Positions 1 through 60,029 of a stretch of DNA of 64,000 bases are shown in pieces; positions within the stretch are counted from its first letter, which is position 1, and each line of letters begins with the position of its first letter. Made by a program: the position numbers and the translations under genes. Origin of the DNA: a virus; the IMG/VR virus record IMGVR_UViG_3300045988_059940, positions 1 through 64,000 of that record; one strand, 5' to 3'. Below the pieces are notes generated by a model that saw nothing but the letters and a program-made list of their open reading frames with translations, did not search any database and was not told where the DNA came from.

Positions 1-3000
1 GTTCTAAAATGTTGATTTTCTAAGAAGTCAACAAGTGCTTCACATGTATCTCTGATTTCCAACCTCTAATTGTATCTACAAGACATTTTTATATACCTTT
101 GTAACATACCTATTAAATCCGCAGAAATCTGTGACGGATTTTCTAGCTACCTGGTATAATATTGTGGTATAATACCAAATTGTCTTCCGTCTGGGTATTT
201 ACCAACGGCCATAGTATGTGTATCTGTGGTATTACCTTCTGAATCTACGTTATCTGCTGCTTCGCCAGAACCTAAGTTTAAATAGTCTTGTGGAGCAATA
301 TTGATACCAACGGATTCTTTCAGATATTCTTTTGTTATTTCTAACTTTTGCCCAATTGGCTGACGTTTTATACGCCTATAAAGAGTACCAGTCTCCTATG
401 GCATAAGATATTTATCTGAATATTGACGGTTTGTCTGCTTAGCGTTAGCAAATTCCATTATCTCTAAACATGCTTCATAAAGTGCATTTAATCTAGGATT
501 TTTCTTTATTTTATTATATTGTTTAGAGTTATCGTATACATTATGTTTAGGTAATTCCGACCTACCAGTTCCATCTTCATGAAAGTTTTTATTCAATAAA
601 GCATTATCTTCTGTCTTCTCAATCCAATATTGATTTGGTTGATATTCCATGTATTTTTCTTTATCTATTGCCTAAGCTTTCTATAACCATTTATACGGGG
701 AAAATTCTTCCAATAGTGTAATGTAATTCACATTAATATTACCATACCCATATAACATAGCTTGATATAGGTTATAATCATTATCTGCTGCTTCCCACAA
801 CTTTGTCTATAAGTCTTTGTAATAATCAGTATCTACAAATTCTATAAACTTAGAAAATACTTCTTTATATTTATCACTTAGATTTTTTAAAGATTTAGAT
901 TCTGATATTTTTTTCCTACGAATTTGATACATTTGTTCATATATCTAATTTAGCAGGTTTTTAACAGACTCTGGCATCAATTCATTGTTGACTTCACCGT
1001 TTGGTGATTTAAATGGTTTTAACAGCTAATCTGAACGCTCTTTTAGGTTATTATATTCTTCACCATAGTCAATATTCTATGCATGCATGATGCGTTCTAT
1101 TTCTTTAAATACAATAGCGTCTCCGTTTTCATCTTTTTTGAATACCAGCTGTGAATTACGAGAGTTCCACTTGTTAAATGTAACTTCGTCAAACTCATTA
1201 TCTTCGCCTCGTTGCCATTTAGAAAATTCGGTCTTTCCACCACACTGTTCTATAATTGCATCAAATGCTACTTGCCAATCTTTTGTGTTTTTTGTGACGG
1301 ATTTCTTAGGGTCTTGACCGTGTTTTTTTCTAATGTTATCTAAGTCTACACGCAACTATTGAAGTTGTTTAGCTATTTCATACTCAACAGTACCTTCTAT
1401 CTTTTTATTTCCAAAGAAATCATAATCAGAGTAAAGTAGTTGTTTATTTCTCCTTAGCTTTTCTAATTGTTCAAAATCATCATCTGATAGTTTGTCAAGA
1501 TGAATATTGCCATTTTCATCTTTTATACCAGGTTTATTTAATATTGAGTTTATAGCCTCATTGTGTGATGATAATGCTTCCTTTGTAAAATAATCAACCT
1601 TTGCCCATGCGTCATAATATTCATCTATAAACTTTCTATCTGTATGTTTCTTTTTCCAATCGTTTCTTAACTTCTACCACTCTTTAAATGCTTCACTGTT
1701 TTCTTTTGGTGGAACACGATTGTCATCTTCAAGTTTTAGATTGTATTTTTTATTAATAGCTCTATTTACTTCTAAGACGTTTGCTTTATCAGCTTTTTGA
1801 AAATTACCATAATTTAACTAAGCAACAAATCTACCAGTTGGTAGACCGTCTTCATCTAATTCATATAAATCCTACAAGCTTTCACCTACCTACAAATCCG
1901 CTGCAAGTTTAGATAATTTTAACATTTTTTCACTCGCTTCAATATCTGCATCATGATTTGCTTTTGTTACAAGATGTGCTATAATACGAACTATTTCATT
2001 TGCAGAAGAGTCGGCAGAGCCTAAATATTGCTCTAAAAAACTAACATCGTCATCTAAGAATTGTTCAGTAGAGTTTATTTTATCTATATAATCCAATAAT
2101 GCTACTGAGTTAGTTTTATCTGCTACTTTCTCTAATTCCGAAATAACAAGTCGCTTCAATAGAATATTCAATGTAGATATACCAGTTGTTGTTACTGATA
2201 CCAATCTTTGTACATCTTGGTGTATTTCTTGCAGGTCTTCGTTTGTTATAGGTTCAGAATCTTTTACTTTGTCTTTGAAGTCTTGAATTATATCTTTACG
2301 ATTTGATACGTTTTTTAATAATTCATCTAATGTTTTAGCTACCTCATTGTACATTCCAATGTTACTGTGCATCTAAAACATATATTCCTTAGAGTCTATT
2401 GTTTTGCCACTCTCGTTAATTTCATCAAATTTATCAAGCTGGTCCAATATATCTGGTATGACCTACTGTAATATAGAAGTTATTGCATGATATTTACTAA
2501 CTGTGGAGCTGTTTAACATTTCTATCTAACTACGAGTAGCATTTAGTTCTTTTATCTTTTCGCTTTGTTCAAGTGATGATGTACGAATGGCATTAACTCT
2601 AATACCAAGCATGTTAGATATTGACTCAAATGATACTGTACGAACATCTTTTAGATTACGTTTTTCAGAAAATGACTTTAAATTATTACGTTCTATATTC
2701 TTTTGTGTACGTATATATTTTAGCTATTCATATACAGCTTGTGTTAATACTGTATTATAATCCAAATGATTTAGAGTAGGCAATAGGCCGTTCTTAGAAA
2801 TAATAGATTTAGAATCATTTTTTTCTGGCTAAGAGTCTAAAAAGTGTAAAAATTTTTTCTGCGCTGCCTTTATTTTTTCTTCTGTTGTGTTGAACACATT
2901 TTTATTTACTAAGAATTTAGTAAGAGAGTTTACGAAATGTTTAATTGTTGATAATAAAGAATTATCTTTATTTAACAAACCAAGTATTTCTGTTCTAATA

Positions 3001-4682
3001 GAATCATCTGTGATGAACATTGCTGCAAATTCTTTTTCATTAGATAGCGCATAAGCAACGTCATCAGAATCAAGCTGTCTGTATTTGTTAAATAGTTTTT
3101 TAGCTTTATTTGTCAACTTGTTTATAGATTTAGCAAATACACGTTCCTCTTTTGTTTTAGGATTATTTAGAGCATTTACAGTTAAAGCATGTATAATCTC
3201 ATGAAGTATCACTGTTGTGACATATCTGTGAGATAAACCTTTTAGCTATTTTTCATCAAGAATAATTATACTACTATCTTCTGTTGTAATTGTTTCTGCT
3301 AATTTTCCAAACGGTAAGTTACCAAATTTAACTGGTATATCATGTTTAATAAGTATCTCTATTAACTCACGTTGAGACTATGATATAGCACTATTGGATA
3401 ATATATCATTTAATATATCAGAAGAACTTACAGCAGAACCACTAGATAGTGCATTAAAATTATTACCAAGAAGGCTTGAACTTTCACCAACAGGTGTGAA
3501 TTGATTTATCGGCATTTGCCCTTCTTCGAATACAGTATTCAATATATCATTGTCGTTTTCATCTCTTGACACACTTACAGATTTGATATTTTTATCACTA
3601 TATGGCTATTCGATAAATCCTATCTTATTTTGTAAATCAAATATTGTATCCACAATAGGTTTAATTTGTTCATAAGAACTTTTAGGTTCAAAGCCAAGTA
3701 ACGTCAGTATATAATTCCAAATATGTTCAAACGCTGACTTAAATTTGTCAGATTCAATTGACGGTATTGTGTGCAACAATTCTGCAAATTCTGGATTAGA
3801 TACAAATTCAGCAATAAATTCATGCGCATTTGTAAATCCATATATACTTTTAGATGACTTTTGTTCTTCTTTATCATTAGACATAGATTCTTCAAGCAGC
3901 GATATATATTTATCAATGGATTTTTCCATGTTTTCATCTGCGTATAAAGCACGAGATGTTGCAGCGTGTACAAGTTCATGTAAAAGTACCTATAATCCAT
4001 TTTTAATATTTATACCATCTCTAATGAAGACAACACCAGTATTATCACCAGGATAATAAAACCCAAACAAATTGGTATTTTCTGCAAAATCAAACTTAGT
4101 TTTATATACACTAATATCACCATTATTCTGAAAATACTTGTATATTTTGTTTATATATTCTTTTGTAGTATTATCTTCTGTCAAAGCCTACAATTGTTTT
4201 AACAACGCCATAGCAGAATACGGTTTGCCACTCTTTGTAATAAGACTATCTAAATCCTGATTGGCTATTATTTTAGCGGCGTCTTTATGTATAGATTTAA
4301 GAATAGATTTATTGTTACCTTTATTTAATTCAGTATTGCTTTTAGATGTTTCTTTTCCACGTATTAATACATCAGACCAAGGTTCTCCTTCGCTTGTGAA
4401 GAAATCTTTTGTATCATCAAATTTACCATCACCACTAAACCACTTTTTAAAACTATTTTTATAGATATTTGATTTTAGACGTATTGCATTAACAATATTA
4501 CCTTGTGTTAGTTCGAGTAAATTTTTAAATAATACAGACTCAGCCCCATTCGGGGCTTTGTCTATACTATTCCCATTATTAGCCGACCATATATGATAGG
4601 CAGCTTTTTCACTTGTAGCGTTTTTTAATTCTTCAAATTCCCTTGCTACTTCGGGATTACTAAAATTAGGACATGCTATCAT
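1..4682 (-). CDS. Giant virion/ejected-type protein, N-terminal >1,560 codons only (ORF runs off the left edge); two zincin-like HExxH modules; TAG read as sense
   Basis: ATG at 4680-4682, with an in-frame TAA upstream at 4707-4709. The 8 track fragments 396..4682 share one frame. I read every gap and 1..395 codon by codon and found 24 in-frame TAG (e.g. 4188, 3990, 3606, 3378, 2829, 1890, 1077, 396, 147, 66) and zero TAA/TGA. The frame is still open at position 1. HELVH at 3966-3980 and HEIIH at 3189-3203. Confidence 0.75.
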
Positions 4683-4696
4683 AATATAATCGTTTA

Positions 4697-7600
4697 TTAT
4701 TCTCCTTTACAGTGTTTCATTGCTTCTTCATCAAATTCACTATCGTCGAATATCATCGGCTACTCTGTAATCTGCGTTTCGTTTACATCTGCTTCAACCT
4801 AATCGGTAACTTCGCTATATGTAGCACCACTAGATAATAACGATGACAATCCACCAAGTTGTGTACTTTGAATTTTTTTCACAGTATTTTCAACAGTTTC
4901 TTGCTTTGGTAAATTTGGTATTGATTCAATTGATTCTACAACTTGTGTTTGTTCAGCAAGATTGTCGGCCAATTGTTGTAATTGTTCGACTTCATTAGTT
5001 GAAGTATTAGGCTGTTTTCTAGTTGCATTGAGCTTTTTCAATAGTGTACGCAACTTCTTATTCTTAGATGAAATATCTTTCGATATAAATAATACTTTAT
5101 CTATTACGTCAAAAAGGTTTCCGTTTCTAGAAGAAGCATATACAATACCATTTGCAACATACTGTTTACCTTCTCTAATAGAAGCGTCTAATCGTTTTAT
5201 TTCTATACCACCAACTACAAGCTTTTGTAATAAGTCATTAATGAAATTATTCATCTTTATTGACCTTACAGCAGATTCTGCATAACCTGGTTTATTTAAT
5301 AGTTCTTTTTTTGCTGTTAATTGCTCATCTTTATTATCAGAATCTTCTATTAATTTTGCAAATTCATCCAATTGCTATTTTATAAACAAGTCAACTTCTT
5401 CTTTTGTAACATCAATCATGTAATCTGCCAAATCTGTCGTAATATGAATACGTGCAGGCTCTGTTGTTATATTTTGAATCTTAGATATAATATCTTCACC
5501 ATTCATAGATATATTAACAGTTTTATTTGCATGACGCTTATTTACATTTGTAGGTTCTTTGCTATTTGTAATATTAATAATTACGTCAGCCTGTGCTTGG
5601 CCACTTGTTTCTGGTTTATCTTTTGCACTAGACAGCCTTACTGTTCCAACCTTAGATGCCTATTCAACAGATGGCTTAAATACATCAAAGTTTGAAGAAC
5701 GCCTAGTTACTGGAATTTCGCCAGAATACTTTATTTCAAGCGTATATTTACCTTTTTTGTATCGTTCTACAACTTCATCTATCTTTTTACGAACAAGGTT
5801 TTCTGCTGCGTCACGTGGCAGTAGATTGTCTTCATAAATAGATGGAGTTTCGTCATTTACATATAACTCATACATATTAACTCTACCGATTCTAATACCA
5901 GCCTTTTGCACCATAATATAAATATTATGAGGTGCGGCAATAGTCAGTTTATCAGAACCTTCTTTTACATACGTACGTGTAATTTCTCCTATTTGTTTAT
6001 ACAAGAACGTAGTGCCATTCTTTCGTATTTTTATATATGGTTGACTATAATCTGTTGTAGTAAATGCAATAGGAAACTAGCTGTTACTATCTTTATCGTA
6101 AGTAGAACCAATTCGTACAGTACCGTTGGATTGTAAACCTCCATCTTTCTACATAGAAAGATATGCTGGTGATACAATAGAATCATCGTACCAATAGTTT
6201 CTAGAAATAGTATCTATTATAGCATCTACTGAACTATTTACAATATCTATATTAGACATTTCATCAGAAACAGTAGTGTTTAAGATAGCAGATAATGCTT
6301 GCGATTTATTCTTAGAACCATTTGACCTAATTAAAGCACGCTTTAATGATGTATCATACTGTCTACGTAGAGAATATGGTACAAGTTCAAAAAATGAATT
6401 TACAACATTTTGGTCATATGACGAATAATATGCATAAAAAGCTAAATCTTCTGCCAGATGTCTTATAGAATCATCTTCTGAGACTAATAATTGATTAAAT
6501 GCAGTAACTAATTTACGTTTTGTGTTACTTGTTGTATTCATCTAAGATTGTGCTAAGATAAATCTTCCAACTTTATATTTTTTAGTTTCAGTTGCCGTTT
6601 GTAAGAAGTTTAATAGTTCATTGGTAATGTCACCATTATCGTCAACTAAACCTTCGTATTTTGGATTGTCCCAATTTTTTCGAAGATTATCTTTTAGTTC
6701 AGCTACTCTCCTAAATATATCTTTTTGTTCACTAGTTCCATAAATTAAATCACGCATTCTTTGCATAACAGCATTTCTATCTCCGTTCATTGTAAAGTCT
6801 AACGGGGAAATACCAAATCTGTCGACAACATCATCAAACATACCTGCACCATAATTAGCAAGAGCATTGTATCTCATAATGTTATCTAGTGCATTTGTCA
6901 TATTTTTAATTAGATTTTTATCATAATTTTTATTATAAACCTATATTTCTCCATTGCCAGTATTTACAATAGAACTACCGAAAAACTTAATCATTGTTGC
7001 TTTAAATATATCTTCAAATATATCTGTGGCTGTAAATAGTTGCGTTTTAAGGATGTCTTTTGTATAACCAGTGGCCTTCATTAATTTATCATGTAAGAAT
7101 GTTTTATCAAAATACTCAGCAAGTGCCATTCTTGATTCAGCATCTCTATCTAACGTGTTATTGTTTTTCTTTGGTACTTTTTCTTTAAATTCAGAGTTAT
7201 TAATTGTAAATAATGTCTATGAATATCTAAATTTTGAATATGTATTTTTATAATCAATTTGTGTAGCAATGGTATTACCAAACTTTTTGGTATCAATACG
7301 TGAGTTACTAACAAGTTCTGATAAAGCTGTTGCGTATTTGTCCATATCTTCTAACGCTTTTATAGCTTTTAATTGGAATATTAAGCTATTAGCTACTTTA
7401 ACTAAATTAGAAGATGTATTATCACGAATTGACTATTTACCTAAATCTATGTCAAATACCTCTGTTTTATTATACTCAAATTTTGGTACATCTTCGCCAT
7501 ATTTCTGCCTTATTTGATAATTAGACATTGTCATAGTTTCAAAATAATTTGCAGCTGCAATTATGGTGGCACGTTGTTCTTCTGTAAATAGTTCACTATT

Positions 7601-10600
7601 TTTAGTTATCATTCCACGTAATCTGGAAACAGTTCTATTTACAACTTTTTTCAGGGCTTCTTTTCGTGCAGAAGTATAGTTATTAGAACTTTCATAATCT
7701 TCATCTAAATTCTTACCATATATACCGCCTCCATTATTTACTAAGTTTGCATAATCTTTTAATAACGGTTGAGCAAGTAGTGTAAACGTAGATAGACCTT
7801 TTCCTGCTCTTAATAAGAAGTTAGTATATTTATATGTAAATTTATTTACATTCAAACTAAATACGTATGGGTCTTTTGCTACGTCTACATTGGCGTTTAC
7901 CATAGCAGAAAGCCAGTCAGAAATTCTATTATCGTCTTGTCCATATATTGCATCTAAATCGCCAAAATCATAACCACCTTTGCCTATTGCATCTTTTCCG
8001 TAATTAAATGTAAGATGTGAATATTGAGTTAAAGCTAAGTTTGTAATGTTTAATGCAAATGGGCCAATACCAGATTTACCAGATGAAAACTCTTGTTTAC
8101 GCAAAGACTGGAATGATGGTAACAATTGGTCCATACCACCAATGTATCCTTTTCTTTTCTCTGTCAATACTGGTTTAACTAACTCGTCCTATAACATTGA
8201 AGTAATAACGTCGATAGAACCCCTAGCATTAGAATAGTTTTTATCGTCAGATATTAAGTCAATATAATGTTGTAACAACGTATTAGCATACCCGCTTGCT
8301 TCAAAGTCTTCATCACCCTCTTGTATTTTTTCACCATTATTATATGCAAGAGTTGCTATATAAAGTTTATCTACGTCAAAGTCAGAACCAGTTTGTGCTG
8401 TAAATTCTCTTGGTACAATAATTAAGTCACCAGCTTGTTCTGGTAATATATCTGCAACATGCATTGCAATCATTGAAGATACACCCTGTGTTGGTATACG
8501 ATAGGCTACACCAAATGGTTTTGCGTTGTCACCAATAATATTATTATCTAACAACCATTGGCGCATTGTGTTATAATCAGTCTGATATTCTTTTGGTACA
8601 ACAGATTTGAAGAAATTAGCACTCAATAACACTTCCGTAGAACCGTCAGCTCTGTGCCACTTCAATTCACGACCGTTATTAAATGAAGTATATCCTTCGT
8701 CTGTGATAACATCAGCGTCACCAGCAAATCCAAATACAGACTGCTGAATTGCAGTACCACCGTTAGTGTTAATATCAATAACCTCTGCATTTACAATAGA
8801 AGATATACTGTTTTCAAATACAGTACGTGATGTAAGTCCCGCTGCAACTCCACCTTGTTCAAATATACTTTCGGCAATAGCTCCAAGACCATTACTACTT
8901 ACAACTGATTTTACAAAACGTTTAACCTCTTCTTTGTCTAATTTTCCGTCTTTATAAAACCTTGCAGATATTTTAGATGCTCCTAGTTCTGTAAGTTTAT
9001 TGATGCAGCGCATAATATCAGCCCTGATTTCAGCACCTGTTTTTGGAGTAACTCCATCACGATTTAGACCATATAATTCAGAATCTTCTATGTTAGAGAA
9101 TGCTAATTTAAACATCTACGTACCAATAGCACGCTCTTCCGATTCGTGCGCATGAGTGTTTAACTGCATACGTAAATATCTTAAATCCTAAACTTCTATT
9201 GGTAGTGTATTTATGTCATCAGTAACCCTTGTGATGTCCGAACTGTAATCAATACTAGTATTACTATTTAGGTTAAACTTTTCGTTTAGTTTTGATAAAA
9301 CATTTTCAGTAGTATCTCCGCCAGCAGGAACAAAGCTTTTCTACACAGGACCAACCTTTACAGCAGATTTGAATGAAATCATATCAAGCTCATTGTCCTA
9401 TTTATTCATCCTATCATATAAAGCTTTACCAACAGATGTAGAACGTTGATATTTAAATATTGGGAAAATAGCTTGCTTATTTAGGACATTTAGGTTGATA
9501 TTTGTATTTTTAGAAAGCCGTTTTGGATTATTGTGAACATATGACATTTTTAATGGATATGCCTGAAATCTCTTAACCATTGCTGCTTTTTCTGAATCCA
9601 TCATCCATTCACCATTCTCATCGTTTTCGATAATCTAATATGCAATTTCATCACTATATCCACTTTCGTCTGGGTCAAAAGTCCATTCGCCAAGTCCAAT
9701 GCGAATCTTACGATATAATGCAGGCCTAATGAATACCTATGCATCACAAACATTTATACCTTTATATGGATTTGTCTATAACTATAATTTCGCCTTAATT
9801 ACATCTTTTTGAGTTTGAGACAAGGCATTAAATAGTTCATTAAATACTTCTTTATTAAAATAAACTTCATTTATAAGATTTTGAACAGTTGTATTTCGCT
9901 TTGTTAAAACATCATTAAGTCTTTCATATTTGCCAGTTCTAATTAAGTCTACAAGCAACTGAACTTTAAAGTTTTCTTCAATTTCTTTTAGATATGTAGA
10001 TGCTATTTCTATATCTTCTACAACAAGGTTAGTATATTTTGTAGAACCTAATGTTGGGTCCATTTTTAACTCATTTTCCGAATATTGTACCCTTATTCTA
10101 GCACCTGGTGACAATGAAGAACCTAAACGTTTAATTTTATCAGAATAAACATCATCCCAGTTTTTAACCTCAAATGTTTCGTCTACAACATATCCATTTT
10201 TCTCCTACTGAATGTGTACTTTACTTGTAGAAGAACCGTATTTTTCTTTATATAACGCTGGGTCACCTGTAAATATCTTTTCCACCTCTATTGTAGATAT
10301 TATTGAGTTTACAGTATGATTAGCTATTAAAGAGAATGTAGCATGTGTTATAGCATCTTCATTATCATATGCAGAATCAGTTTCTGTTATATTGTTTTCA
10401 CCAAGAGTAGTAATGTATTTATCTAACATGTGTTCTGGTAGCCCAATCGGTAGATATGAATCTGTTGACCTGTTGTATTTTACTAAATTTAAAGGTCCAT
10501 CTTTTGATAATTTATCCAACTCCTAGTATGTCTTTTTTATAAGCTAACTATTAACATTATCTAATAGTTCATTTGACATACTGCTTCCAGAAATACACCT

Positions 10601-32722: not shown

Positions 32723-32945
32723 GTGCACTTAAAAGACTTTTTATTTCTCCAAATTTAGTATTAATATATGTAGTAATACCAAATACGCTGCCTGCATACA
32801 CCAGTGTCTACGACACATACCACAATACTTCGCTTGGTATCTTGTGTTCATTTAAGAAGAACGACAAGAACGTAAGCGCTATACCACTAAATAATGATAC
32901 AGACGCTGTGCTATACTGTACCACTTCTTTACTATGTCTTGTCAT
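32679..32945 (-). CDS. Holin-like small membrane protein, 88 aa
   Basis: Not in the ORF track because it is split by a TAG. ATG at 32943-32945, one nt after the upstream TGA; TAA at 32679-32681; one TAG (32808). Two hydrophobic segments (ASVSLFSGIALTFLSFFL; VLWYVS[TAG]TLVYAGSVFGITTYI) and a charged C-terminal tail. It overlaps the start of the spanin-like gene. Confidence 0.45.
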
Positions 32946-48547: not shown

Positions 48548-51500
48548 TAATTATAATAGTTTTTAGTTGTATTATTATCTAATAGAGTTTTTGGATTTTC
48601 ATGTATAGCATTTGCACCATAGTTCATAAATACTTCTCCATACTCTAATTTATTATGTCCAGCTGAAACATATCTATTTGGTGTAAATACCTATGCAAAC
48701 TTAACCTTTCCTGGACTTACAAATAGTGTACTACCACAGAAAGCACCTCTTATATAAGATAATTGATTAAATCCGTAGAATACGCCACTTATCTATACTG
48801 GTTGAGATGAGTTGCCCGTAACATAATGACAATATGCAAATGCAAACCCTATGTCTCCTAATACAGACTTATTTATATCCTATATAGCAGAAAGATTAGT
48901 TCCTAGATACAATGTTATACCATTAAATGTATTTCTAAGAGTTGTTATATTAGGACAGTATTTAAACAAGCTCTTTGGTATTGTGTAATTTGTAGTACCG
49001 TCTAATAAAGTATATGTAGACAAATATGTACAATTATAAAACATTCCAGTTATATTTTTTGTATAACCATTAAATGGTAACAATAATACTGGTGGAATAC
49101 GTCCGAATAATCCGCCTCTATCTTGAACATTATAACCACATCCACAACCGTAAAATATATTCTATATCTCAGCATCACCATTACAATATCTAAATAAATC
49201 TGGTGCGCAACAATAGTTTAGTGTACCACTTAATATAGTATTATCTCTTGTGATTACAGAAGATACTAAGTTCTCATCGTGTTCATCATCTCCATCATGT
49301 ACCCCAGTCTTCTTATGTACACCATCATAACTCCACATTATTGTGTTGTTTACAGTATCAGGTTGAGCTTTCTAGAATTTACCATTTATAAATAATATGT
49401 TGTATGGTTGATATGTATGGTTTTGAATTTCCTCTGGACTGTTATTAACATAAGGTTGTATATAATTGTACTAAAATAGATTATTAGTAAAGTTTATCTT
49501 TGAGTTTGGTTTCTTTGTAGTAATTGTAGTTTTAAAATATACAACACCTTCTGGGTTCTATATTACCGTACCATCTTTACTCCACTCTATTGTTTCGCCT
49601 GTCTATTTATATTTAAATATATCACCGTTCTTATGTGTTATTGTCACAGTTGTTGTTGAAACACCATTTGATGTAGATGTTTCTGATTCAATTTTACCAT
49701 CAACTATTCCATAATATGTCTATGTAACATCCGTTTCACCGTGATATAATAACTTATACGGTATATGACTTTTTATCCGCTCTTGATATGAAGAATTTGC
49801 AAACAAATAAGATACCTAATTTAATGAAGTACAATTTGCAAACGAGTTCCCAGTAAGCTTATAATCAAACTTTAAATCTGAGAACAAACCATATACATCG
49901 GTTAACTATGGATTGTTTATAAATAAATTACCAGGTAACTCTGGAATAGATATTAGATTTTCTGCTGTTGAATTACTGAACAAATATCGTACAACACTTA
50001 ACTTTTTACAATCTTTAAATATATTTTCTGGAAAACCTCCAACAATACGCTTTTTATAGCCATATCCAAACATTGTTATATTGTTGATAGTGCTTCTATT
50101 ATTAAAATGCGTAAGGTTGGTAAAACCTTCAAATAACTGATTTGTAATTGGGAAATCAACAGATGTTGTACCTTTGCTTAAGCATGCAAATGCAGATATA
50201 ACTGATACATGTTGTGGATGCTTGAACATATTCTTAAAAGATATGGTTCCTTTTCCATAACTTGAAATAAAAGCATCAGATACAGAATTTACTGGATTTT
50301 CAAAAGTTATTGTATCATAATCTATAAAACATGCGTTAAAGCAACTAGTATAATTCTTTGTTAATAAATTCTTGGTAAACATTGTAAGATTTCCTCTATC
50401 AGCACCGCCAGTTTTTGATAATTCTAAATCTCCATTGGCGTATTTATTATCAAAGTCTACAAATCCTGCATTGTTTACATCTTCAACGATGATTGAATTT
50501 TTATGATTAAAAAATCCAGTAAATGAATTTATTTTATAATTCTTAGATGAATGTCTAAACATAAATCTATCGAACATGCCGTGGAATCCATTTGCCCAAC
50601 AATCTATATTTGTCAAACTATCTATAAGTGGACTAAACAGACCGTTGTCTTTCGTAACATTGTTTTCATCGTGTTCTGGTGAGAATATTCTAATGTTTTT
50701 ATAACATCCCCATAGAATATCACGAATATCCCAAACGCCAGTTGCGAAATGATACATATAACGATTTGGACTATTATCCACAGTAGCTGTACGTTCAAAG
50801 TTTACCTTTGACTAAAAGAACATACCACGTAAACTCTTCATCTGTCCTAAGTTTGATAATGCGTAGTATACATCAAATACTGTACATGCGGTTTCTCTAA
50901 ACATATAATCACACACAGCAGTTCCAAATGTTATATTAGTTACACCATCACCACTTTGCCACGGCATCTTCCAATTCAATGGAGGCTGTTTACCTTTACT
51001 ATCTGGATTAGTTATTTCGTATGGCATAAGAACTCTACCGTCTGTGTCTACAACAGATTTGTTCATAAATTTAACAGTAGATACATCTGAACCATGTAGT
51101 GAGAATTTATTCAGCAGATAAAACGTTCTTGTTGATGCAATTACTATATTACCATATAAACGCTTTAAATTGGCACAGCCTTGGAATTGCTAAGTTAAAG
51201 TAATAGGTTTATCTTTATCATTAGCAAACTGTATGTATTCTACTGTACTATTTTGGCTAATATTGAATGTTTGTAAACCTGTAAACTTACTAAGATTTAA
51301 TATATCTTTGCTAGATGGACTTCCTTTTATTGCACTACCGTTCAAGTATAAGTTTTCAACGTTAGCTTCATTACAGTTGTCGATAGTAACATAATTCAAC
51401 TTAGAATTTGAAGATAAATCTATACTGGTAAGTGCTCGCAAATCAGATAGTGTAACATAATTTGTATTAGAATCACCAATCAATGCTTGGTTGTTTATTA

Positions 51501-54500
51501 TTCTTACACTATCTAACCTAGGACAGTTTTCAATAGCAATTTGTGTTAAGTTTACATTATTTGCTATTGTTAAATTAGTAAGATTTTTACAGTTTATAAT
51601 CTATACCTTTTGTAAGTTATTATAACCAGACAAGTCCAAAGATGTATAACCATCGCAATCTTCTATATAAACCGTCTATAAATTGTTACATCCTGTCAAG
51701 TCAATCTGTTTTAGATATGGTTGATGTCTCAAATCCAACTCATTTATGTTAGACCTTTGTATCTATAATGTTTTCAAAGGTACGTTGGTCGGTATGTATA
51801 TGTTTGTAATACATTTACTACCAGATATATTTATATCAGTAAGTTTAGTAAACTTTGTAAATGCGTGTGGAGTTTTGCTGTTTTGTTCTATATCTAAAAC
51901 AAATGTTTTCGTGGGGTCTAAGCACTGTGTATTAGAAAAGTCCATAGTTCTAATCTAAGACTGTATGTCTTTTCTAAATACATCTAATTTAAAGTCTGGG
52001 CTAAAATGTTTGTTGCCACTCAAATCTATTTCATATAATGCTGGGAATCCTAATGCATCTATTGTATTTTGTGCTTCTGTTGCAGCTAATATAGATACCT
52101 ACATACTTGATAACTTATTGTTAGCATTACCAAGCTTTATGAAGTTATTTGAATTAGTAATGTTCCAGTTATATGGACCACCATATTTAATGTTGCCAAC
52201 GTTTACAAACGTTTCTTTATTGTCCTATAAGAAATAGAAAGCGGTAACTGTATCGCCAATACTTATCTTTGATATTATTGGACAGTTTGTTGTTACTGGG
52301 AATACCTGTTGATTTGTACCCATTATACTGTTACCAGTAGATACATCTGCATTTGATTTAAATGTAATAGATTGCTGTTGCTTTGCAGTATCGCGCCACT
52401 TAAATAAGCTATCTAAGAATATAGTATGCTTCTTCAACCAATTTCTACTATGTGCAATCTTACGACCATGTAGCTTAGTCATATCTTTTGTATTACTAAT
52501 TTGGTCGTTAGTAAATTGTAATAGATATTTTAGCTTATAGTCATAATTAAATATCAACGAACCACAATCTGATGTTTGCTTATCAAAGTATTCATCAATG
52601 AAATAATTCGTAAATGTATCATATCCTTTTGACTTAGCTAAATCTTCTGTAAACTTTCTAAAATCATACCAATATTTTGTATATAGTGAATTTACATCTT
52701 CTCCAAATACTGCCCTACTAAACGATGTGTCTAATGACAACCACAGTTTGTTTGTATTTGCAGACACTGTTTTTCTAGATATAGCTTCGTCGAAATTAAA
52801 TGTTTCTGATACATACTACAATCCATTTTGTGCATTTGCAACAGTACCCTTGTTTGTTAGATACTTAATCCACACATCTGGTGTAATAGACAACTAACCT
52901 TGGTTATCACCGCTCATAGAACAGTCTAGGTCATAAAAGTCAGTAAGGTATTTGTTTCCATCCCAAGACCTATATGTTGAGTTCTTTCCAAAGTTATCAA
53001 CTAATCCAAAGAAGTTTGCAATGATGAAGTATTTCATTGCACTTTCTACATTGAATCCTAGGTTCTCAGCACTTACTGCATTGGAATCAATTTCAATATC
53101 TTGTTTCTAACCAGTCTTATAATAGTTATTAAAGTTATCAACTGAGTATAAATCATAAGACCCTGCAATATAGTTTTTAGAAATCGTACCAATAGAGTCA
53201 CTACTATAACAGCGTTCTATTGGGAAGCGCATTATGTTCTTTACGAACTGTACAAATCCTGGGTAATCGCTAACCTATTTATTTGATGGGTATCTAACAT
53301 CAAACCTACGATTTAAGATTTCTCTATCACTTTGCCAGAAATCACCATTTGAAGTATTTATACCTTCTGGAAGTGTATCTTTTACATTTGCAAAATCACT
53401 TAGAGATACAGTATCTTTAATTTCTATCCAGTTTGCATTTTGTGTATCTTCCTCTACGTATTTTACTTTATCTTTATAGAATGGGAATGTAGTTACCTCA
53501 AATACATTATTACCTTCATCTACGATTTTATTTACTTTCTTAAATCCTAAGTTTCTATATGCGTTACGACCTAGGTTAAATGAATATATTCCAAGTGGCG
53601 TAGTAGATACTTTATTTTGCGCATCTGTGTAGAATTTCATTATTAAGAATACAGGGAAACCTTCTACTGTATGTTTAAGTGTAGCTGTCTTTTGCTGCTT
53701 CTTAACATAATCAGACTCATATACATTGTCTACTGCTTTTTTATCGAATGGGAAATATTCAGATGTACCAATTCTACCAAGTGCACTATTTATAAACGAA
53801 CCAATAGAAGCATTACTAGCATGAGAGCTGTCTACAACGTCAGCTTTAAGTGTATATGTCTGTTCAGGAAACCATGTAGATTTTGGTACAAATGCTGTTG
53901 TGTCAGGTACAGTTATGTTTACGTTCTTAACTGCGTCTGCTAGCGTTGAAGTACCTTGTAATTCAATTGTGACACCGTTAATTGTTTTAATACTAGTGTC
54001 AATACCTGTCTTATCTTGTTTGTTTATTCCAACTGGGTCCCAGTATTGTATAACTTTATTTGTAGTAGCAGTTAGAGTTGTAGATGATGCTGATTGCTGT
54101 TTTACAAACTAATCAAATGTCCAAGATGAGTCGTTACTAACATCAATCAATACAATAGGTATGCCAATAAATGCAGCCTATTCTTGTATGCTTTTACTAT
54201 TTAATCTACCATTAGAATCTAGTAAGAAGTCTACATTATAGCCAGTATGCTCGTTGTATAGGTATGATTTAATACTACCATCAGATTTTCTTTCACAGAA
54301 GTTCTTTTTTAATTCTACCTATATTCTTGCATAGTTTGGAGTTCCATTTACATAATCAGTTGACACAATATTATTTATACTATCAACCATTATGTCGAAC
54401 TCATTAAGTGCATATGTATATATATTCATGTTATATATATCTACATCACACTTATTATATATTACAGACTTTCCATTCTTAATATATTGTCTAGCTCCTA

Positions 54501-56346
54501 AATATATAGTATCACCAAATACAATTGGAGTTGTTAGATTTCTAATAGCTGACAATACTCCGTCCAAATACACCTTGACTACATATGATACACTATCCAC
54601 ATATCCAGTTGCTATTTGTGTACGTGTCGTCTACTTCTTACACGTAATTGTAATATCATTTTCAGTACTATCTTCAAGCTATATTACATTTTCATTATTA
54701 ATATAAATGTTATGTACATCAATGGATATACCATTAATCATAGCTCCAAGATTCTAGTCTGCAACAGAAGTATTACCAGAGAATAATATTGTTCTCTCAT
54801 CATCTGGGTGATAGTCTGCTTTATAATGTATATGAATTGTAAATTCGTCACCGCTTGACGATATGATGTCATTAAACTTATATTTTCTAGATTCTAGTGA
54901 AATGTCATCAAATTTGGCATATGCACCATTACTAATCCTATAATACTATACAGCAGAATCTAAAATAGATACTCTTGACCTAATATTACTTTCCATTGTT
55001 CGCAACACAGAACCTATTTGGAATTGTGATTTATAGTTTGTATTTGTAAATTCAAACGTATCATCACCAACGTTCTATGCTCTGGCATGCAATGAGAATA
55101 TTCTGTTGTTTATAATATTAGATGTGTCTGATAAATATGTAACTGATGATTTTATAAACTTAATGTAATATGTCGTAGTTGCTGTCTTCTGTCCAGAAGT
55201 AACGGTCACCTTCAACGGTACTGTCTTATTTGCAACAGTCCACGGTTTATTATTTACAGATATATAATCACTAACCTACCTACCAAATACACCGTCAGCG
55301 TCTTGTCTAACAAGATTTCCATCTATTTCTATATTATACTTATAAGACGTGTACTGACTTACATATGCTGTAAATACAACATTAACAGAACCATCCATAC
55401 TAACCTCTGTTGGCTGTCCTTGTACTTTGCTCATTACAGCAGACGATATTAGAATTTCTGATGACACCACTGTCATTGTAGATTTAATCGTCTTCTTTAC
55501 AGATTGTGTTGTTTTGTTCTGTAAAGTACATTCTACAACATAACTATCTATGTAATCTTCTGTCTATCCTATCAAGTCACTAAGTACAATAGATTTTAAG
55601 AACTAGTCGGTTGTAGCAATTACTAAGTCATACTCTTTTGTAATTGTATGTAATCTACCTATGAGCTTAATTGTCAACTTGTAGTTACCGACAACACCTA
55701 CACTATAATACAACTTTAAAAAAGAAGTATTTAAGCTAGTTAGTGTACTTTGTATATCTTCACATGACATTTCTATGTTGTTGTCAATAATAACACCAGA
55801 CCACTGTGCAGAGCCGTATATACCCTTTTCGTCATCTTCATAAGATGCAGATATATTCAGCTTTCCAGTATGATTTGATAATTGACTTACAACAGTATCA
55901 TATGGTACAAACAGTATAGGATTTGACGCATTAGCTACTGAACTATATATCTATGTACTACCTATACGAGCTATTACATTCCACCCTTTATTGTATTTTA
56001 CACTTAAATCTGACAGCTTTATCTGTAAACCTCCCTAGTCCATTATTATTTGTGAACCAGTTGGTTTATCATTTACAGTAATAGTTGTATTTACTTCTGT
56101 ATCACCAGGTGTTGCTCCTCCACCTCCACTACCAGAGCCTCCACCTCCATGTAGTGCGAGCCATGATATATTTCCTTGTGCGACAGTTAAATCATCTTTT
56201 AATCTTTCCATCGCAGTATCAACAGAGATTATATTCTCTCCGTCTTTTAAGAACTTAGGGTTTGTTGTACCGATACCTTTTGCATCATTACTTGCTACAA
56301 TATCCCAAGTTCTTTTTGATTCATTATATTTCTTTATGTTATTCAT
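48547..56346 (-). CDS. Giant tail fibre / receptor-binding protein with leucine-rich repeats, 2,599 aa
   Basis: Ten co-framed fragments 48880..56346. Every gap was read: 36 TAG, no TAA/TGA. ATG at 56344-56346; TAA at 48547-48549. Gly linker HGGGGSGSGGGG. About 22-aa LRR units around 51.2-51.9 kb (LDLSGYNNLQKV.IINCKNLTN; LTIANNVNLTQIAIENCPRLDS). BspA-like repeats at 49.9-50.8 kb. Confidence 0.7.
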
Positions 56347-56357
56347 TGTAAGAAAGA

Positions 56358-59300
56358 TTATAAGGTGATTGTATATTTGTCCTATGTGGTTATATTATAT
56401 GCAGATAAATCTTGCGGTAATGATTCTTTCAATGTCATTGCTACTGCTGATAGACTATCTAATTGTTTATTCATGTCATACTTTGCAGTATTCTTATCTT
56501 CATTCACCGTCCAAACACCTTTTATTTGTTTAGCTGTAATATCTATTTTACTATCTGACATTTCATACACTACATACATGGGGTAATGTTGCTTAACATT
56601 TTCCTTCGGTGTAACTTCACTAGTCTTAGCTTTAAAATATGCTAACAACCAAGGTATTTGATAATCTGGCCCAGACGGCTGTTCTTTGTTTGAAACTAAC
56701 TTCCAACCAGTTGCCTATGACATAACATATGTTGGTGCATTGATTTTATCTACTATTTCAAATCTTGCAAATTGTAACCAATCATTATTTATATCTGATG
56801 CCTTTGTTACCTAAATTACTGGTTTTCTAGAAACACCTTCTGTTACTTCGCCCATAAACTCAACGGCTGTATTTTGCCTGTTATTCTATATATAATCAGC
56901 TGGTGCATCATATATTGGTTTACTTATACTATAAGTATGTTTGTGACCACCAAATACTAATCGTATACCATACTTCTTAAACAATCTAGAAAACCTATAT
57001 GTACCATTGTTATTTAGTGTATTTAAGTGTGAACCACTACGTCCTTTTACACCATTCATGAAGTCCCAGGTTACGATTGTAAATGGCATTTCATGCATAT
57101 AACAAAGTGTATTTTTACAGTCAGTTGGATTCTCTACACCATAGTATATCTATAAATCTTTCTTTAACCAATCTTCAATTTTAGCGTTCATTGTTTTAGC
57201 AAAGGTAGCATCGCCAGAGTTTGTACTAATGTTCCAATCATCTGTATACACTTTACTAGTAGCTACCGCATTTTCTGAATTAATAGATATGAAATGGAAT
57301 TTCCCATAATTAAACGAATATGTAGAATACATTAAACATTTCTTCCCATTCCATGTTAATTCATATTCATTGTTTGGGTCTAGCTCAAATGTAAAGTATT
57401 TCAATACATTTACATGGTTATATTTAGATGTAACATCATCACCGTCTGTTAGTTGTGTAGCATTATGTCCACACAAGTCATTGTTACCAACAGTAAACAT
57501 TTCAGTTTTATCACCTAAGAACTCGTCTAGTGCTTGATAGTAATCTAACCATTCATTCTCCCTATTACCGTTCTAAGTAATATCTCCTGTATTTATCAAG
57601 AAGTCTGCGTCTTGTTGGTCTTGTGCTAACATCTTGGCCGATTTACGCCAAGCCTGGTAATCTATCCAACTGAACCCTTGTTGGTCAGTTTCTTGTACGA
57701 ATTTAAAAGTTGTTACCTCTGAGTTGTCTTTGACCGTTAACGTCTTAATTGTACTATAATATGACTCGTCAAAGTCTCTTCCTATGCGATATTCATATAC
57801 GCCAGCTTCAAACTATTCACTTAATACTACCTTATGAGTAGTAACCATTGTACCGCGTACCGTCTTCCAGCGTAATCTTTCATAATGGTCTATGAACTTA
57901 TTTATAACAGCTGAGTTAGAAGAATCATCTCTTGTTATAGAATATTGTTTCTTCCATTCAGTTTGTCCTTTTTTACGATATTCTATAAACTCATCGTAAT
58001 ATCCGACAGATACCCAATTGAAGCATCTAGAAGCCTTTTTGTGATTTGCTGTATCGGAAGTGGCTTGAATACCAAATGTACACCTTATGCAGTTTGGTTT
58101 ATTCTTATTGAACTCTGTTTTATCTGTAAAGAAGTTTTTACCCTCCCATGATGCTTTTGGTGTATATTTCTCTTTCATCTCATCTAGATAGTAATACTGT
58201 ATACTATTACCTATCTTTGTAGTTTGACGTTTAAGATTTACATATATCCATAAGCTTGTAGACTTTCTAGCACCATATGCTTTATTACCCTATTTGGCTG
58301 GTTCTAACATAAACCTACGTATAAATAGCGCATCATTCCAAGAATCTCCTGGCTCTAATAAGAATGTAGTTCCACCTTCACTTAACGAGCCTACACCAAA
58401 TCCACAGCTATCTATATATCCTTTATTTACCTTTTGTTTATTCCAAGGTGAAGCTAACTCTCCAACAGCATATAGATTACCATTGGAATCGTACACCCAG
58501 TTATCTGTTGGACTACCAACACACAAATAGAAGCTAGAACAAGTTTGGCTAAACTTTATTAGTTCACCATTTGAGAACCACTCTTGGTCATATGTATTAA
58601 CATCAATGAATTGAGAGTTATAATCATTACATTTAGCTCCTCGTATTAAATATGTAGAGCCTGCTTTTATTACACCACTTAGCGGTAATGTGTGCCACTT
58701 GTATCCGTTTGTACCTCCACCATATGGTGTACCATCTGTATAGAGTAGATATATACCATTTAAGTTAATATCTTCTGTTGAACCATTTGCAAGCTCTACA
58801 AAGTTGTGTGAACACATACAGTCTTCTGAACCTTGTCCACCGCAATATACTTCATTTATACAGAGTAGATGATTTATAAATACACCCCAAGACCCATCTG
58901 GGTTACCTATACCAGTTGGAGTTTGTATATTCTTATGTATCATAAACTCGCCAGACTTACTTACTTCTACTTTGTATGTAGATTCACCGTCTGTAAAGTT
59001 TAGATACCTTAGTTTCGTAGCATATAAATCTTCTACACTAATTCCACCACCAGAACCTCCTGAGCCACCATCTGTTGTGCCTACAAGATTGAACTTCCCA
59101 TCTTTATATAGAACTAAACGTTTTTTATCTGTATAGAATAGTATTTCACCGTCTATTAGGTTTTGTCTATTCTTATTGAAATTAGCTACTGTATCCATCT
59201 TTATAGATACATGATTTACAGTAGGTTCTATTCCTTCTGTATTAGGTTTATCTTTAACTATACCTGGAATATCTTTTGATTCCTTTGGTTTAAGAGGGTC

Positions 59301-60029
59301 TGCTGAACGCATGATAATTTCCCTAGCACTAGAATGTGCATCACCAGCTACTACACCGTTGAGTATTATTTTATTTACAACACTCATGTTTTTGTATATT
59401 TCAGCGAGTGCTGCTTTTATCTTCTTTAACTCATCAGCATCATTCTATGTTAGATTTGTAGTATCACGAGTGTCTATCCACAACTTGCTTTTATCCTCTG
59501 GTGCAATTTGTCCAACATATATCTACGAACTTGATATTTCTGATAAACCTGTTGATAACAGACGATATAATACGCCTGTTGTTTTATTATATATTATTTT
59601 TGTAGATGCTTCTTTGTAATCATCAGATGACCCATAATTATCAGTGGATGCCCACTGTGCATATGCAAAACCTGCCTTTATTGCTAGGAATTTTTTATGT
59701 GCGTCACTGTATACTATTTTATCGTAAGTATTTGCTACGTTTACATCATCGATAGTATATATTGTCGTATCTATTGAATCTATTGTTAATACGTCAGACT
59801 TACGACCATTCTGCTTTATTTTTTTTAATATTTCATCAATGTTTATATCTGGCTATTGTGCCTATAAACGCTCTACAATACGTTTAATGGAGTTGGCATC
59901 AAATATATCCCCATCTTCAAACTAATGGTTATTGATATATTCGCCACGCTATAACATGATTACTTTTGGAGTCCTAGGTATATCTATGTTATCAATAATC
60001 CTAGTACCAAATAGTTTTGTTTTTTTCAT
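56358..60029 (-). CDS. Tail fibre-like protein with lamin-tail-like and metallophosphoesterase-like domains, 1,223 aa
   Basis: ATG at 60027-60029 (in-frame TAA 60039-60041); TAA at 56358-56360. Five co-framed fragments plus 59388-60029 were read: 14 TAG, no TAA/TGA. LTD-like segment INEVYCGG...HNFVELANGSTEDINLNGIYLLY. Phosphoesterase-like motifs LINTGDIT[TAG]NGN, VGNND and FGGHKH. Linker GGSGGSGGG. Confidence 0.65.

What the first reader, a model, noticed from the sequence alone, without database searches (positions are those of the whole stretch)
1..60029. TAG is a sense codon throughout the 60-kb late block
Every break between minus-strand ORF-track fragments that I inspected is cta (TAG), and the next fragment continues in the same frame. 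After merging there are 27 genes. They end in TAA or TGA and are packed like a normal phage operon, with ATGA overlaps at 37067-37070 and 33369-33372, a TAATG overlap at 48545-49, and 2-14 nt spacers elsewhere. By hand count there are about 236 in-frame TAGs across roughly 19,900 codons and no in-frame TAA/TGA. In an AT-rich sequence, open stretches of thousands of codons without TAA/TGA cannot be chance. TAG reassignment in late genes has been described for crAss-like and other gut phages, so the phenomenon is not new. This element is an extreme and clean example.
Basis: partly seen in the sequence, partly recalled or inferred. Interest (0 to 1): 0.75.

Follow-up and report, generated by a model that had tools for sequence, protein, structure and literature searches.

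The report
TAG-as-glutamine late genes, crAss-like phage
The 60-kb block is the late-gene module of a crAss-like gut phage that reads the stop codon TAG as glutamine using its own suppressor tRNA; this is real, but already well documented for this phage group.

Summary
With TAG read as sense, minus-strand ORFs tile 99% of 1-60029. There are 27 ORF units, 19,886 codons, 239 in-frame TAG and no in-frame TAA or TGA (chance about 10^-719).

TAG means glutamine. At window TAG sites, 76 relatives carry Q or TAG, and the substitution profile fits Gln far better than any other residue. TAG-free relatives align straight through these sites.

The element belongs to Crassvirales (Suoliviridae/Oafivirinae). 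It has TerL, portal, major capsid protein and a 5,502-aa protein with a gp66-type virion RNA polymerase. TAG-to-Gln recoding of late genes in this group is published, and relatives carry 0.4-1.6% TAG against 1.2% here. The example is therefore typical, not extreme.

Corrections:
- One break is not a TAG. TerL is split by a 239-nt ORF-less group-I-like intron (45130-45368), so there are 26 genes.
- Recoding reaches beyond 60029, to a conserved 71-aa gene at 61906-62121.

The likely decoder is a tRNA(CUA) at 60731-60819, upstream of the block. It is homologous to the 72-76-nt suppressors of relatives but carries a 19-nt variable arm. That feature is shared by 57 distinct phage CUA tRNAs, and I found no paper describing it.

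The capsid gene avoids TAG, and a putative spanin is enriched in it.

The parts
3..60029 (-). TAG-recoded late-gene block: 26 genes in 27 ORF units, 19,886 codons, 239 in-frame TAG, 0 TAA/TGA. The last ORF continues beyond the window's left end.
56358..60029 (-). First gene of the block, 1,223 aa, 14 TAG. Function not assigned.
48547..56346 (-). 2,599-aa gene, 36 TAG. Function not assigned.
47318..48547 (-). 409-aa virion structural protein (C-terminal match to phrog_20787), 6 TAG of 11 Gln codons.
45369..46785 (-). TerL exon 1 (ATPase and start of nuclease), 5 TAG. Ends ...GGCDP + T of the Tyr codon.
45130..45368 (-). 239-nt ORF-less group-I-like intron in TerL. P1 pairs GACCCGU with GCGGGUC, with U.G at the 5' splice site, and the last base is G. 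Removing it restores ...CDPY|DHDES.
   Evidence: no Rfam match
44489..45129 (-). TerL exon 2 (nuclease), 2 TAG. The spliced gene is 2,058 nt (685 aa), the same length as TerL of cr272_1.
42001..44484 (-). Portal protein, 827 aa, 7 TAG. Sites 455, 501 and 697 are Q or TAG in all or nearly all of 70-76 relatives.
38649..40172 (-). Major capsid protein, 507 aa, no TAG among 13 Gln codons. Relatives have 5 TAG against 822 CAA/CAG.
32947..33372 (-). 141-aa protein (phrog_1501, function unknown), no TAG. First gene of a putative lysis cluster; that role is inferred from position only.
32679..32945 (-). 88-aa membrane protein (phrog_8278), 1 TAG. Holin-like by inference.
32054..32722 (-). 222-aa protein with an N-terminal hydrophobic (putative transmembrane) stretch, 9 TAG of 12 Gln codons (binomial P = 4e-4). 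Spanin-like by inference.
25147..30066 (-). 1,639-aa gene, 18 TAG. Its counterpart in cr272_1 is annotated as a virion structural protein.
4697..21205 (-). 5,502-aa giant protein, 66 TAG. Contains a gp66-type virion RNA polymerase region (PDB 6VR4, E = 4.8e-25) with catalytic TGSDFDVDKLY. One TAG aligns with a Q of gp66.
3..4682 (-). ORF of at least 1,560 codons, 24 TAG, truncated by the window edge.
60061..60089 (-). Strong terminator-like hairpin (12 pairs, then a T-rich tail) between dUTPase and the first late gene.
60145..60705 (-). dUTPase (phrog_135, E = 1.7e-53), no TAG.
60731..60819 (-). Suppressor tRNA with anticodon CUA, 89 nt. It has a 7/5 cloverleaf, C1:G72, U73 and a 19-nt variable arm (5-bp stem, CUG loop). 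It is the only CUA tRNA in the window.
60976..61049 (-). tRNA-Met (CAU), next to the suppressor as in relatives.
61906..62121 (-). Conserved 71-aa gene outside the stated block with an in-frame TAG at codon 6. It has an ATGA overlap with the upstream gene. Relatives carry TAG at other positions of it.

Best explanation
This is the late (virion, packaging, lysis and virion-RNA-polymerase) module of a roughly 100-kb crAss-like phage (Crassvirales, Suoliviridae/Oafivirinae). In this module TAG is translated as glutamine, as in genetic code 15.

Shown:
- TAG is in frame 239 times, with no TAA or TGA.
- It is interchangeable with CAA/CAG in homologues.
- It makes up 25% of Gln codons.
- A tRNA with anticodon CUA is encoded on the same strand. 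It lies about 0.7 kb upstream of the first late gene and is separated from it by the dUTPase gene and a terminator-like hairpin.
- In a 98%-identical relative, the opposite-strand early module is almost free of TAG, and three ORFs there end at TAG.

Inferred:
- The phage tRNA is made during infection and charged with Gln by the host GlnRS. The CUA anticodon keeps C34 and U35, which are major GlnRS identity elements in E. coli.
- The charged tRNA outcompetes release factor 1 at UAG.
- Late genes therefore become fully translatable only once the suppressor has accumulated. This is the timing-lock model of Borges et al.
- The capsid gene avoids TAG and a spanin-like gene is rich in it. This fits selection on how strongly each gene depends on suppression.
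For: ORF statistics.

Gln identity: 628 Q and 367 TAG out of 1,724 cells at window TAG sites. Portal sites 455 and 501 and TerL exon 2 site 86 are Q or TAG only; portal 697 and TerL 366 are nearly so. Likelihood is Q -2.12, E -3.19, S -3.63, L -4.78, Y -5.11. The majority residue is Q in 52% of TAG columns, against 58% of the window's own Gln columns. Where relatives have TAG, the window has Q 835 times, with E next at 194.

Alignment through the sites: relatives with no TAG in the aligned genes read straight through with Q. A TAG in the RNA polymerase region aligns with a Q of gp66.

Taxonomy.

Suppressor tRNA: with covariation across 57 homologues. A CUA tRNA was found in 18 of the recoded relatives. 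None was found in the four relatives with no TAG in the aligned genes, although those loci may not reach the tRNA region.

Other CUA tRNAs: none in the window or in 31-69 kb of the 98%-identical contig.

Early module: nearly free of TAG, with TAG-terminated ORFs.

Published precedent and proteomic proof in related phages: PMC7886860, PMC9523058, 10.1101/2021.08.26.457843.
Against: - The tRNA does not look like a bacterial tRNA-Gln. It has a 19-nt variable arm, C1:G72 instead of a weak 1:72 pair, and U73 instead of G73.
- The Rfam tRNA model does not reach its threshold on it. The best match is the tRNA-Sec model at 42.9 bits, below its 47-bit threshold.
- Charging with Gln is therefore inferred from the proteins, not from the tRNA.
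- About 5 kb of the relative's genome was not examined, so a second suppressor cannot be excluded.
- No expression, aminoacylation or proteomic data exist for this element.
- The timing-lock role is a published hypothesis, not something shown here.
- The TAG-free capsid gene, and the TAGs in the 71-aa gene (window) and the ThyX gene (close relative), show the lock is not a clean early/late partition.
Confidence: 0.92

Rival explanations
1. TAG is a sense codon but encodes Ser, Leu or Tyr in this lineage. On this view the lineage's suppressor has acquired the long variable arm typical of class II tRNAs, which is the main SerRS determinant.
For: The tRNA has a 19-nt variable arm with a 5-bp stem. 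Its anticodon stem-loop CCGGU-CUCUAAA-ACCG resembles, from my memory of the E. coli sequence, tRNA-Ser(CGA) with one anticodon change. Its best Rfam match is tRNA-Sec.
Against: The profile at TAG sites fits Gln (-2.12) far better than Ser (-3.63), Leu (-4.78) or Tyr (-5.11). The majority residue is S in 4% of TAG columns, the same as in true Gln columns (3%). TAG sits at positions that are Q in every relative that has no TAG there, such as portal 455 and 501 and TerL exon 2 site 86. The tRNA is clearly homologous in acceptor, D and anticodon arms to the 72-76-nt suppressors of relatives.
Confidence: 0.04
2. TAG is read as Gln, but not by the phage tRNA at 60731-60819. The decoder would be a host suppressor, a second undetected phage tRNA, or near-cognate read-through after RF1 is inactivated. 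The long-arm tRNA would then have another role or be a relic.
For: Published surveys detect suppressor tRNAs in only about 40% of TAG-recoded phages. One recoded Crassvirales genome reportedly has none. About 5 kb of the genome was not seen.
Against: The tRNA keeps a perfect cloverleaf and a canonical anticodon loop. It is conserved with compensatory changes in close and distant relatives. It occupies the same position next to tRNA-Met as the suppressors of relatives. No other CUA tRNA was found in about 95% of the genome.
Confidence: 0.04
3. The TAGs are real stops, from decaying pseudogenes or from assembly or sequencing error, and the long merged ORFs are an artefact of ignoring them.
For: None beyond the formal possibility.
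Against: There are no TAA or TGA in 19,886 codons, against 0.080 per codon in the off-frames (P about 10^-719). Homology continues on both sides of every TAG tested. The same pattern appears in dozens of independent assemblies.
Confidence: 0.005

Closest known systems
TAG-recoded crAss-like phages of the delta group / Suoliviridae (Yutin et al. 2021, PMC7886860; Borges et al. 2021/2022; Peters et al. 2022, PMC9523058). Examples are RefSeq cr272_1 (Buhlduvirus porcinus) and Bohxovirus.
   Same: Same order and subfamily: major capsid protein 80-83% and portal about 75% identical. The late module is recoded TAG to Gln, a suppressor tRNA(CUA) sits upstream, early genes are largely free of TAG, mobile elements interrupt TerL, and a spanin-like gene is rich in TAG. 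cr272_1 itself has 35 in-frame TAGs in the aligned genes.
   Different: Nothing in kind. The differences are in detail. The suppressor has a long variable arm instead of the 72-76-nt form. TerL carries a small ORF-less intron rather than the intein reported as typical. About 11.5 kb of two large genes lie between the tRNA and TerL.
E. coli supE, the amber suppressor tRNA-Gln(CUA), and GlnRS mischarging of CUA-anticodon tRNAs (established tRNA-identity literature, from my own knowledge)
   Same: A CUA anticodon with C34 and U35 directs insertion of Gln at UAG in competition with RF1.
   Different: supE is a class I tRNA with U1:A72 and G73. The phage tRNA has C1:G72, U73 and a 19-nt variable arm. 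It serves a whole recoded gene module rather than leaky suppression.
Lak megaphages and other code-15 gut phages (Jade, Sapphire, Garnet and others; Borges et al.)
   Same: TAG to Gln recoding concentrated in structural and lysis genes, and phage-encoded Sup-CUA tRNAs. Long-arm CUA tRNAs related to the one here occur on contigs of 50-600 kb.
   Different: These are unrelated phage lineages with different genome sizes. Their recoded genes are often scattered over several modules.
ORF-less group I introns in phage genes (for the TerL interruption)
   Same: The 5' splice site follows a U in a U.G pair of P1, the last intron base is G, removal restores the conserved motif exactly, and helices show compensatory changes.
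   Different: No match to Rfam's group I model, even at E = 10. The catalytic core was not identified.

Membership tests
Crassvirales (Suoliviridae/Oafivirinae) | Homologous TerL, portal and major capsid protein in crAss-type order | tested here: met
   phrog_6681 TerL E = 7e-92 and 6e-49, phrog_6547 portal E = 5e-159, phrog_11589 major capsid protein E = 8e-122. Best named hits are Bohxovirus, cr272_1 and cr131_1.
Crassvirales (Suoliviridae/Oafivirinae) | Giant virion protein with a gp66-type single-chain RNA polymerase | tested here: met
   Residues of the 5,502-aa ORF match PDB 6VR4 at E = 4.8e-25, and the DFDVDK motif aligns with DFDIDK.
Code-15 (TAG to Gln) recoded phage module | Many in-frame TAGs in conserved genes, with TAA/TGA only at gene ends | tested here: met
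   239 TAG, 0 TAA/TGA in 19,886 codons.
Code-15 (TAG to Gln) recoded phage module | TAG positions align with Gln in homologues that have no TAG there, and alignments continue through them | tested here: met
Code-15 (TAG to Gln) recoded phage module | Phage-encoded suppressor tRNA with anticodon CUA | tested here: met
   ARAGORN 60731-60819. Homologues in relatives.
Code-15 (TAG to Gln) recoded phage module | The rest of the genome uses the standard code (dual coding) | tested here: inconclusive
   The window holds only about 4 kb outside the block, and one gene there has a TAG. In a 98%-identical relative the early module is almost free of TAG and three ORFs end at TAG. Its ThyX gene, however, has 2 in-frame TAGs.
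Code-15 (TAG to Gln) recoded phage module | Peptides with Gln at TAG positions | not testable with these tools
   Shown for other crAss-like phages by Peters et al. (PMC9523058), not for this one.
Bacterial-type tRNA-Gln (as the identity of the suppressor) | Class I shape with a 4-5-nt variable loop | tested here: not met
   19-nt variable arm. Relatives' suppressors of 72-76 nt do have the class I shape.
Bacterial-type tRNA-Gln (as the identity of the suppressor) | Weak 1:72 pair, G2:C71, G73, G10 and U35 (the E. coli GlnRS identity set, from my own knowledge) | tested here: inconclusive
   G2:C71, G10 and U35 are present. C1:G72 and U73 are not as in E. coli. Among the 57 long-arm homologues, 1:72 is U:A in 16 and unpaired in 18, and several of those that encode a CCA end have G73. 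The host's GlnRS rules are unknown.
Group I intron (TerL insertion) | Precise removal restores the conserved reading frame | tested here: met
   The spliced sequence reads GGCDPY|DHDES, as in 53 relatives with uninterrupted TerL. The total is 2,058 nt, the length of cr272_1 TerL.
Group I intron (TerL insertion) | U.G pair at the 5' splice site in P1, and a terminal G | tested here: met
   Read directly: GACCCGU pairs with GCGGGUC, and the last base (45130) is G.
Group I intron (TerL insertion) | Conserved catalytic core (P3-P7, G-binding site) and a match to the family model | tested here: not met
   No Rfam hit at E up to 10. A conserved fold exists, with 20 of 53 pairs compensatory in 4 sequences, but the core was not assigned.

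The most novel reading that the evidence does not exclude
The decoder of this recoded module is not an ordinary tRNA-Gln-like suppressor. It belongs to an undescribed, widespread family of phage tRNA(CUA) genes. I found 57 distinct sequences on 84 IMG/VR contigs of 5-600 kb. They add a class-II-like variable arm, often containing CUCUGAAG (27 of 57), to a Gln-type body, yet appear to insert Gln.

The arm could be a handle for a phage factor, or an anti-determinant against host nucleases or non-cognate synthetases. Such tRNAs may account for part of the 'missing' suppressors in the roughly 60% of TAG-recoded phages where none has been detected. Rfam's tRNA model misses the one in this window.
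Probability: 0.25. Interest if true: 0.55.

Novelty: already known. Interest (0 to 1): 0.3.

Why it matters
As a finding it confirms a textbook-in-the-making case. Gut crAss-like phages run their late genes in a different genetic code from their host. Gene callers using table 11 shatter these genomes: here the longest ORF rises from 509 aa to 5,504 aa once TAG is read as sense.

The practical lesson is for annotation. This window must be called with code 15, and TerL must be joined across an intron.

The parts that could add knowledge are secondary:
- The long-arm suppressor tRNA family bears on how a class-II-shaped tRNA could be charged with Gln, and on why suppressors go undetected in many recoded phages.
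- Across the clade the capsid gene almost never uses TAG (0.6% of Gln codons, against 15-49% in most neighbouring genes). That constrains models in which recoding is a simple on/off lock for all late genes.

Tried and rejected
- TGA or TAA as the reassigned codon. Neither lengthens the ORFs meaningfully; the longest are 509 and 559 aa.
- The Rfam gathering-threshold scan finds only tRNA-Met. The suppressor reaches only the tRNA-Sec model, below threshold. A Sec or 8/5 reading was rejected because relative L004 encodes CCA directly after U73 of a 7/5 fold.
- Rfam at E up to 10 over 44900-45600 gave no group I or II intron hit.
- An intein reading of the TerL gap was rejected for the window. The insert is out of frame and opens with TAA. 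It does hold for relative L001, which has a 371-aa C...HN|C LAGLIDADG intein.
- The look-up of encoding contigs on the 112-aa right-end protein found nothing on record. The search for related loci on the 134-aa + strand ORF gave no relative. The genome walk was done instead through close relatives L151, L165, L170 and L174.
- PHROG scans of 17 smaller late and boundary proteins mostly gave 'unknown function'. No release factor, aminoacyl-tRNA synthetase or amidotransferase was seen in the window. The large proteins, apart from the RNA polymerase segment, were not scanned.
- The crude ORF-gain test for TAG recoding around the other long-arm tRNAs was only suggestive. Forty-five of 56 loci gained more than 30%, but TGA-as-sense also gives gains.
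- Three literature searches for long-variable-arm phage suppressors found nothing relevant. That does not prove none exists.

Full report
**1. The observation**

The window is 33.5% G+C. Under the bacterial code the longest stop-to-stop ORF is 509 aa. Treating TAG as sense raises this to 5,504 aa, whereas treating TGA or TAA as sense does nothing comparable.

On the minus strand, 27 ORF units then tile 98.99% of 1-60029. They hold 19,886 codons, 239 in-frame TAG and no TAA or TGA. In the off-frames of the same genes, TAA+TGA occur at 0.080 per codon, so the chance of none is about 10^-719.

The quoted junctions are correct: ATGA at 37067-70 and 33369-72, and TAATG at 48545-49. Complete genes end in TAA (19) or TGA (6).

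**2. What TAG encodes**

A portal-based scan returned 79 related viral loci. Of these, 76 were informative after excluding three that are more than 90% identical to the window.

I mapped every window TAG onto the relatives' codons by tblastn.
- Across 1,724 cells, the relatives carry Q in 628, TAG in 367 and E in 172.
- Portal sites 455 and 501 and TerL exon 2 site 86 are Q or TAG only. Portal 697 and TerL 366 are nearly so.
- Where relatives have TAG, the window has Q 835 times, with E next at 194.

A likelihood comparison against the empirical substitution profile of each amino acid gives Gln -2.12 per residue. The next values are Glu -3.19, Ser -3.63, Leu -4.78 and Tyr -5.11. TAG columns behave like the window's own CAA/CAG columns: the majority residue is Q in 52% against 58%.

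Relatives with no in-frame TAG in the aligned genes (L078, L038; 73-85% identity) align end to end through the sites, with Q at 11-12 of 17-19. TAG is therefore glutamine. It supplies 25% of the block's Gln codons.

**3. What the element is**

PHROG profiles identify TerL, portal and the major capsid protein. The best named relatives are Bohxovirus, cr272_1 (Buhlduvirus porcinus) and cr131_1, all Crassvirales, Suoliviridae (named Darmviridae in the taxonomy copy used here), Oafivirinae.

The 5,502-aa ORF at 4697-21205 contains a region homologous to the phi14:2 gp66 virion RNA polymerase (PDB 6VR4, E = 4.8e-25). Its catalytic TGSDFDVDKLY aligns with TGSDFDIDKMY, and one TAG falls on a gp66 Gln.

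Near-identical IMG/VR contigs are about 102 kb.

**4. Mechanism**

ARAGORN finds a tRNA with anticodon CUA at 60731-60819, next to tRNA-Met, on the same strand as the late block. Downstream of the tRNA lie the dUTPase gene (60145-60705), a 12-bp terminator-like hairpin (60061-60089), and then the first late gene at 60029.

Eighteen recoded relatives carry a CUA tRNA, in several of them visibly next to tRNA-Met. No CUA tRNA was found in the four loci with no TAG in the aligned genes, though those loci may not reach the right region.

I walked through a 98%-identical genome (L165, L170, L174, covering contig 31-69 kb). No second CUA tRNA appeared. The opposite-strand early module is almost free of TAG, and three of its ORFs end at TAG 7-15 codons before the next TAA or TGA. 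TAG probably still acts as a stop there.

The best-supported model is the published one. A phage suppressor, charged with Gln by the host, converts UAG into a sense codon, so late proteins are completed only once the tRNA is present. Charging and timing are inferred, not shown.

**5. Comparison with the literature**

- Yutin et al. 2021 describe TAG to Gln recoding of late genes, suppressor tRNAs, and introns and inteins in the Delta group.
[quoted passage not shown] They find the spanin and amidase genes enriched in TAG.
- Peters et al. 2022 prove Gln at TAG by proteomics.
- RefSeq cr272_1 has 35 in-frame TAGs in the aligned genes.
- Relatives carry 0.2-1.6% TAG per aligned codon, against 1.2% here.

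The finding is correct and already known. The example is typical, not extreme.

**6. Corrections to the finding**

(a) TerL is not two genes. The two ORFs match PHROG TerL positions 79-546 and 548-753. Fifty-three relatives read ...GGCDPYDHDES... without interruption.

The window has a 239-nt insert at 45130-45368. It begins after the U of a GACCCGU/GCGGGUC helix with a terminal U.G pair, and it ends in G. Its removal restores CDPY|DHDES and a 2,058-nt gene equal in length to cr272_1 TerL. Homologous inserts in L062, L064 and L068 share a fold in which 20 of 53 pairs show compensatory changes. Rfam does not recognise it.

The same spot is a mobile-element hot spot. L001 has a LAGLIDADG intein three codons upstream, and L025 has both elements.

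(b) Recoding is not bounded at 60029. The conserved 71-aa gene at 61906-62121 has a TAG at codon 6. Relatives carry TAGs elsewhere in it, aligned with Q. A close relative's ThyX gene has two TAGs, one at the position where I expect the Gln of the ThyX motif (S-Q-R-Y, from my own knowledge).

(c) TAG use is uneven (chi-square P = 2e-4).
- The major capsid protein has 0 of 13 Gln codons as TAG. In relatives the figure is 5 TAG against 822 CAA/CAG, or 0.6%.
- Most neighbouring genes have 15-49%.
- The 222-aa protein with an N-terminal hydrophobic stretch at 32054-32722, beside a holin-like gene, has 9 of 12 (P = 4e-4).

**7. The unusual tRNA**

The suppressor is 89 nt and has a 19-nt variable arm (5-bp stem, CUG loop), C1:G72 and U73. 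Its acceptor, D and anticodon arms are plainly homologous to the 72-76-nt suppressors of related crAss-like phages.

The Rfam tRNA model misses it. The tRNA-Sec model scores 42.9 bits, below its 47-bit threshold. A 7/5 fold is confirmed by relative L004, which encodes CCA directly after U73.

A pattern search that constrained only the anticodon arm, the T-loop and the spacing between them found 84 viral contigs. They hold 57 distinct long-arm CUA tRNAs. Acceptor and T stems show rich covariation, 27 of the 57 contain CTCTGAAG in the arm, and 1:72 is U:A in 16 and unpaired in 18.

I found no paper describing this. Authors do speculate that non-canonical suppressors escape detection. This is the only part with real novelty potential. 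It was only partly followed up.

**8. Verdict**

The phenomenon is already known, so interest is low to moderate. The side observations on the long-arm suppressor family, the TerL intron and intein hot spot, and TAG avoidance in the capsid gene are worth recording.

Noticed in passing
window 45130-45368 (-): TerL is interrupted by a 239-nt ORF-less, group-I-like intron at the nuclease CDPY|DHD motif. Relatives have no insert (53 loci), the same small intron (L003, L062, L064, L068), a LAGLIDADG intein three codons upstream (L001, L004), or both (L025). Rfam does not recognise the intron.
   Followed up: yes
window 60731-60819 (-); loci L080-L163: The suppressor tRNA(CUA) has a class-II-like 19-nt variable arm, although TAG is read as Gln. 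Fifty-seven distinct long-arm CUA tRNAs occur on 84 IMG/VR contigs, and 27 share CTCTGAAG in the arm. The Rfam tRNA model misses the window's copy.
   Followed up: partly
window 38649-40172 (-), also 34566-35600 and 40195-41313: The major capsid gene has no TAG, and in relatives only 0.6% of its Gln codons are TAG. Two other structural genes are also depleted (5-7%), whereas most neighbouring genes have 15-49%. This suggests selection against dependence on the suppressor in the most highly expressed genes.
   Followed up: partly
window 32054-32722 (-): A 222-aa protein with an N-terminal hydrophobic (putative transmembrane) stretch lies next to a holin-like 88-aa gene. It uses TAG for 9 of its 12 Gln codons (P = 4e-4). 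This matches the published TAG bias of crAss spanins. Its function was not confirmed by any profile.
   Followed up: partly
window 61906-62121 (-): A conserved 71-aa gene upstream of the suppressor tRNA has an in-frame TAG at codon 6, so recoding extends beyond the stated block. It has a weak match to a DNA-binding-protein PHROG (E = 0.003).
   Followed up: yes
window 60061-60089 (-): A strong hairpin (AAAGGGGGTCCC-GATAA-GGGGTCCCCTTT) with a T-rich tail lies between dUTPase and the first late gene. It is a likely transcription-unit boundary just downstream of the tRNA genes.
   Followed up: no
L018 489-562, L020 101-173, L021 390-464, L029 743-817: Relatives carry, between tRNA-Met and the site where the CUA suppressor lies (no CUA tRNA was found in L029), a tRNA-like gene that ARAGORN folds with a 6- or 8-nt anticodon loop (called '???' with aa, taaa or tgaa). 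It could be a TAA-reading or frameshift-type tRNA.
   Followed up: no
L151 6368-7168 (close relative, beyond the window's right end): The ThyX gene of the early or nucleotide-metabolism module has two in-frame TAGs. One lies where I expect the Gln of the ThyX motif (S-Q-R-Y, from my own knowledge). Three other early ORFs appear to terminate at TAG. The same genome therefore seems to use TAG both ways.
   Followed up: partly
window 63204-63585: The + strand ORF at 63184-63588 (phrog_1365) is replaced by a shorter, unrelated stretch in relatives that are otherwise 90-95% identical (L093, L104, L151). It is a small variable island at the switch between divergent modules.
   Followed up: no
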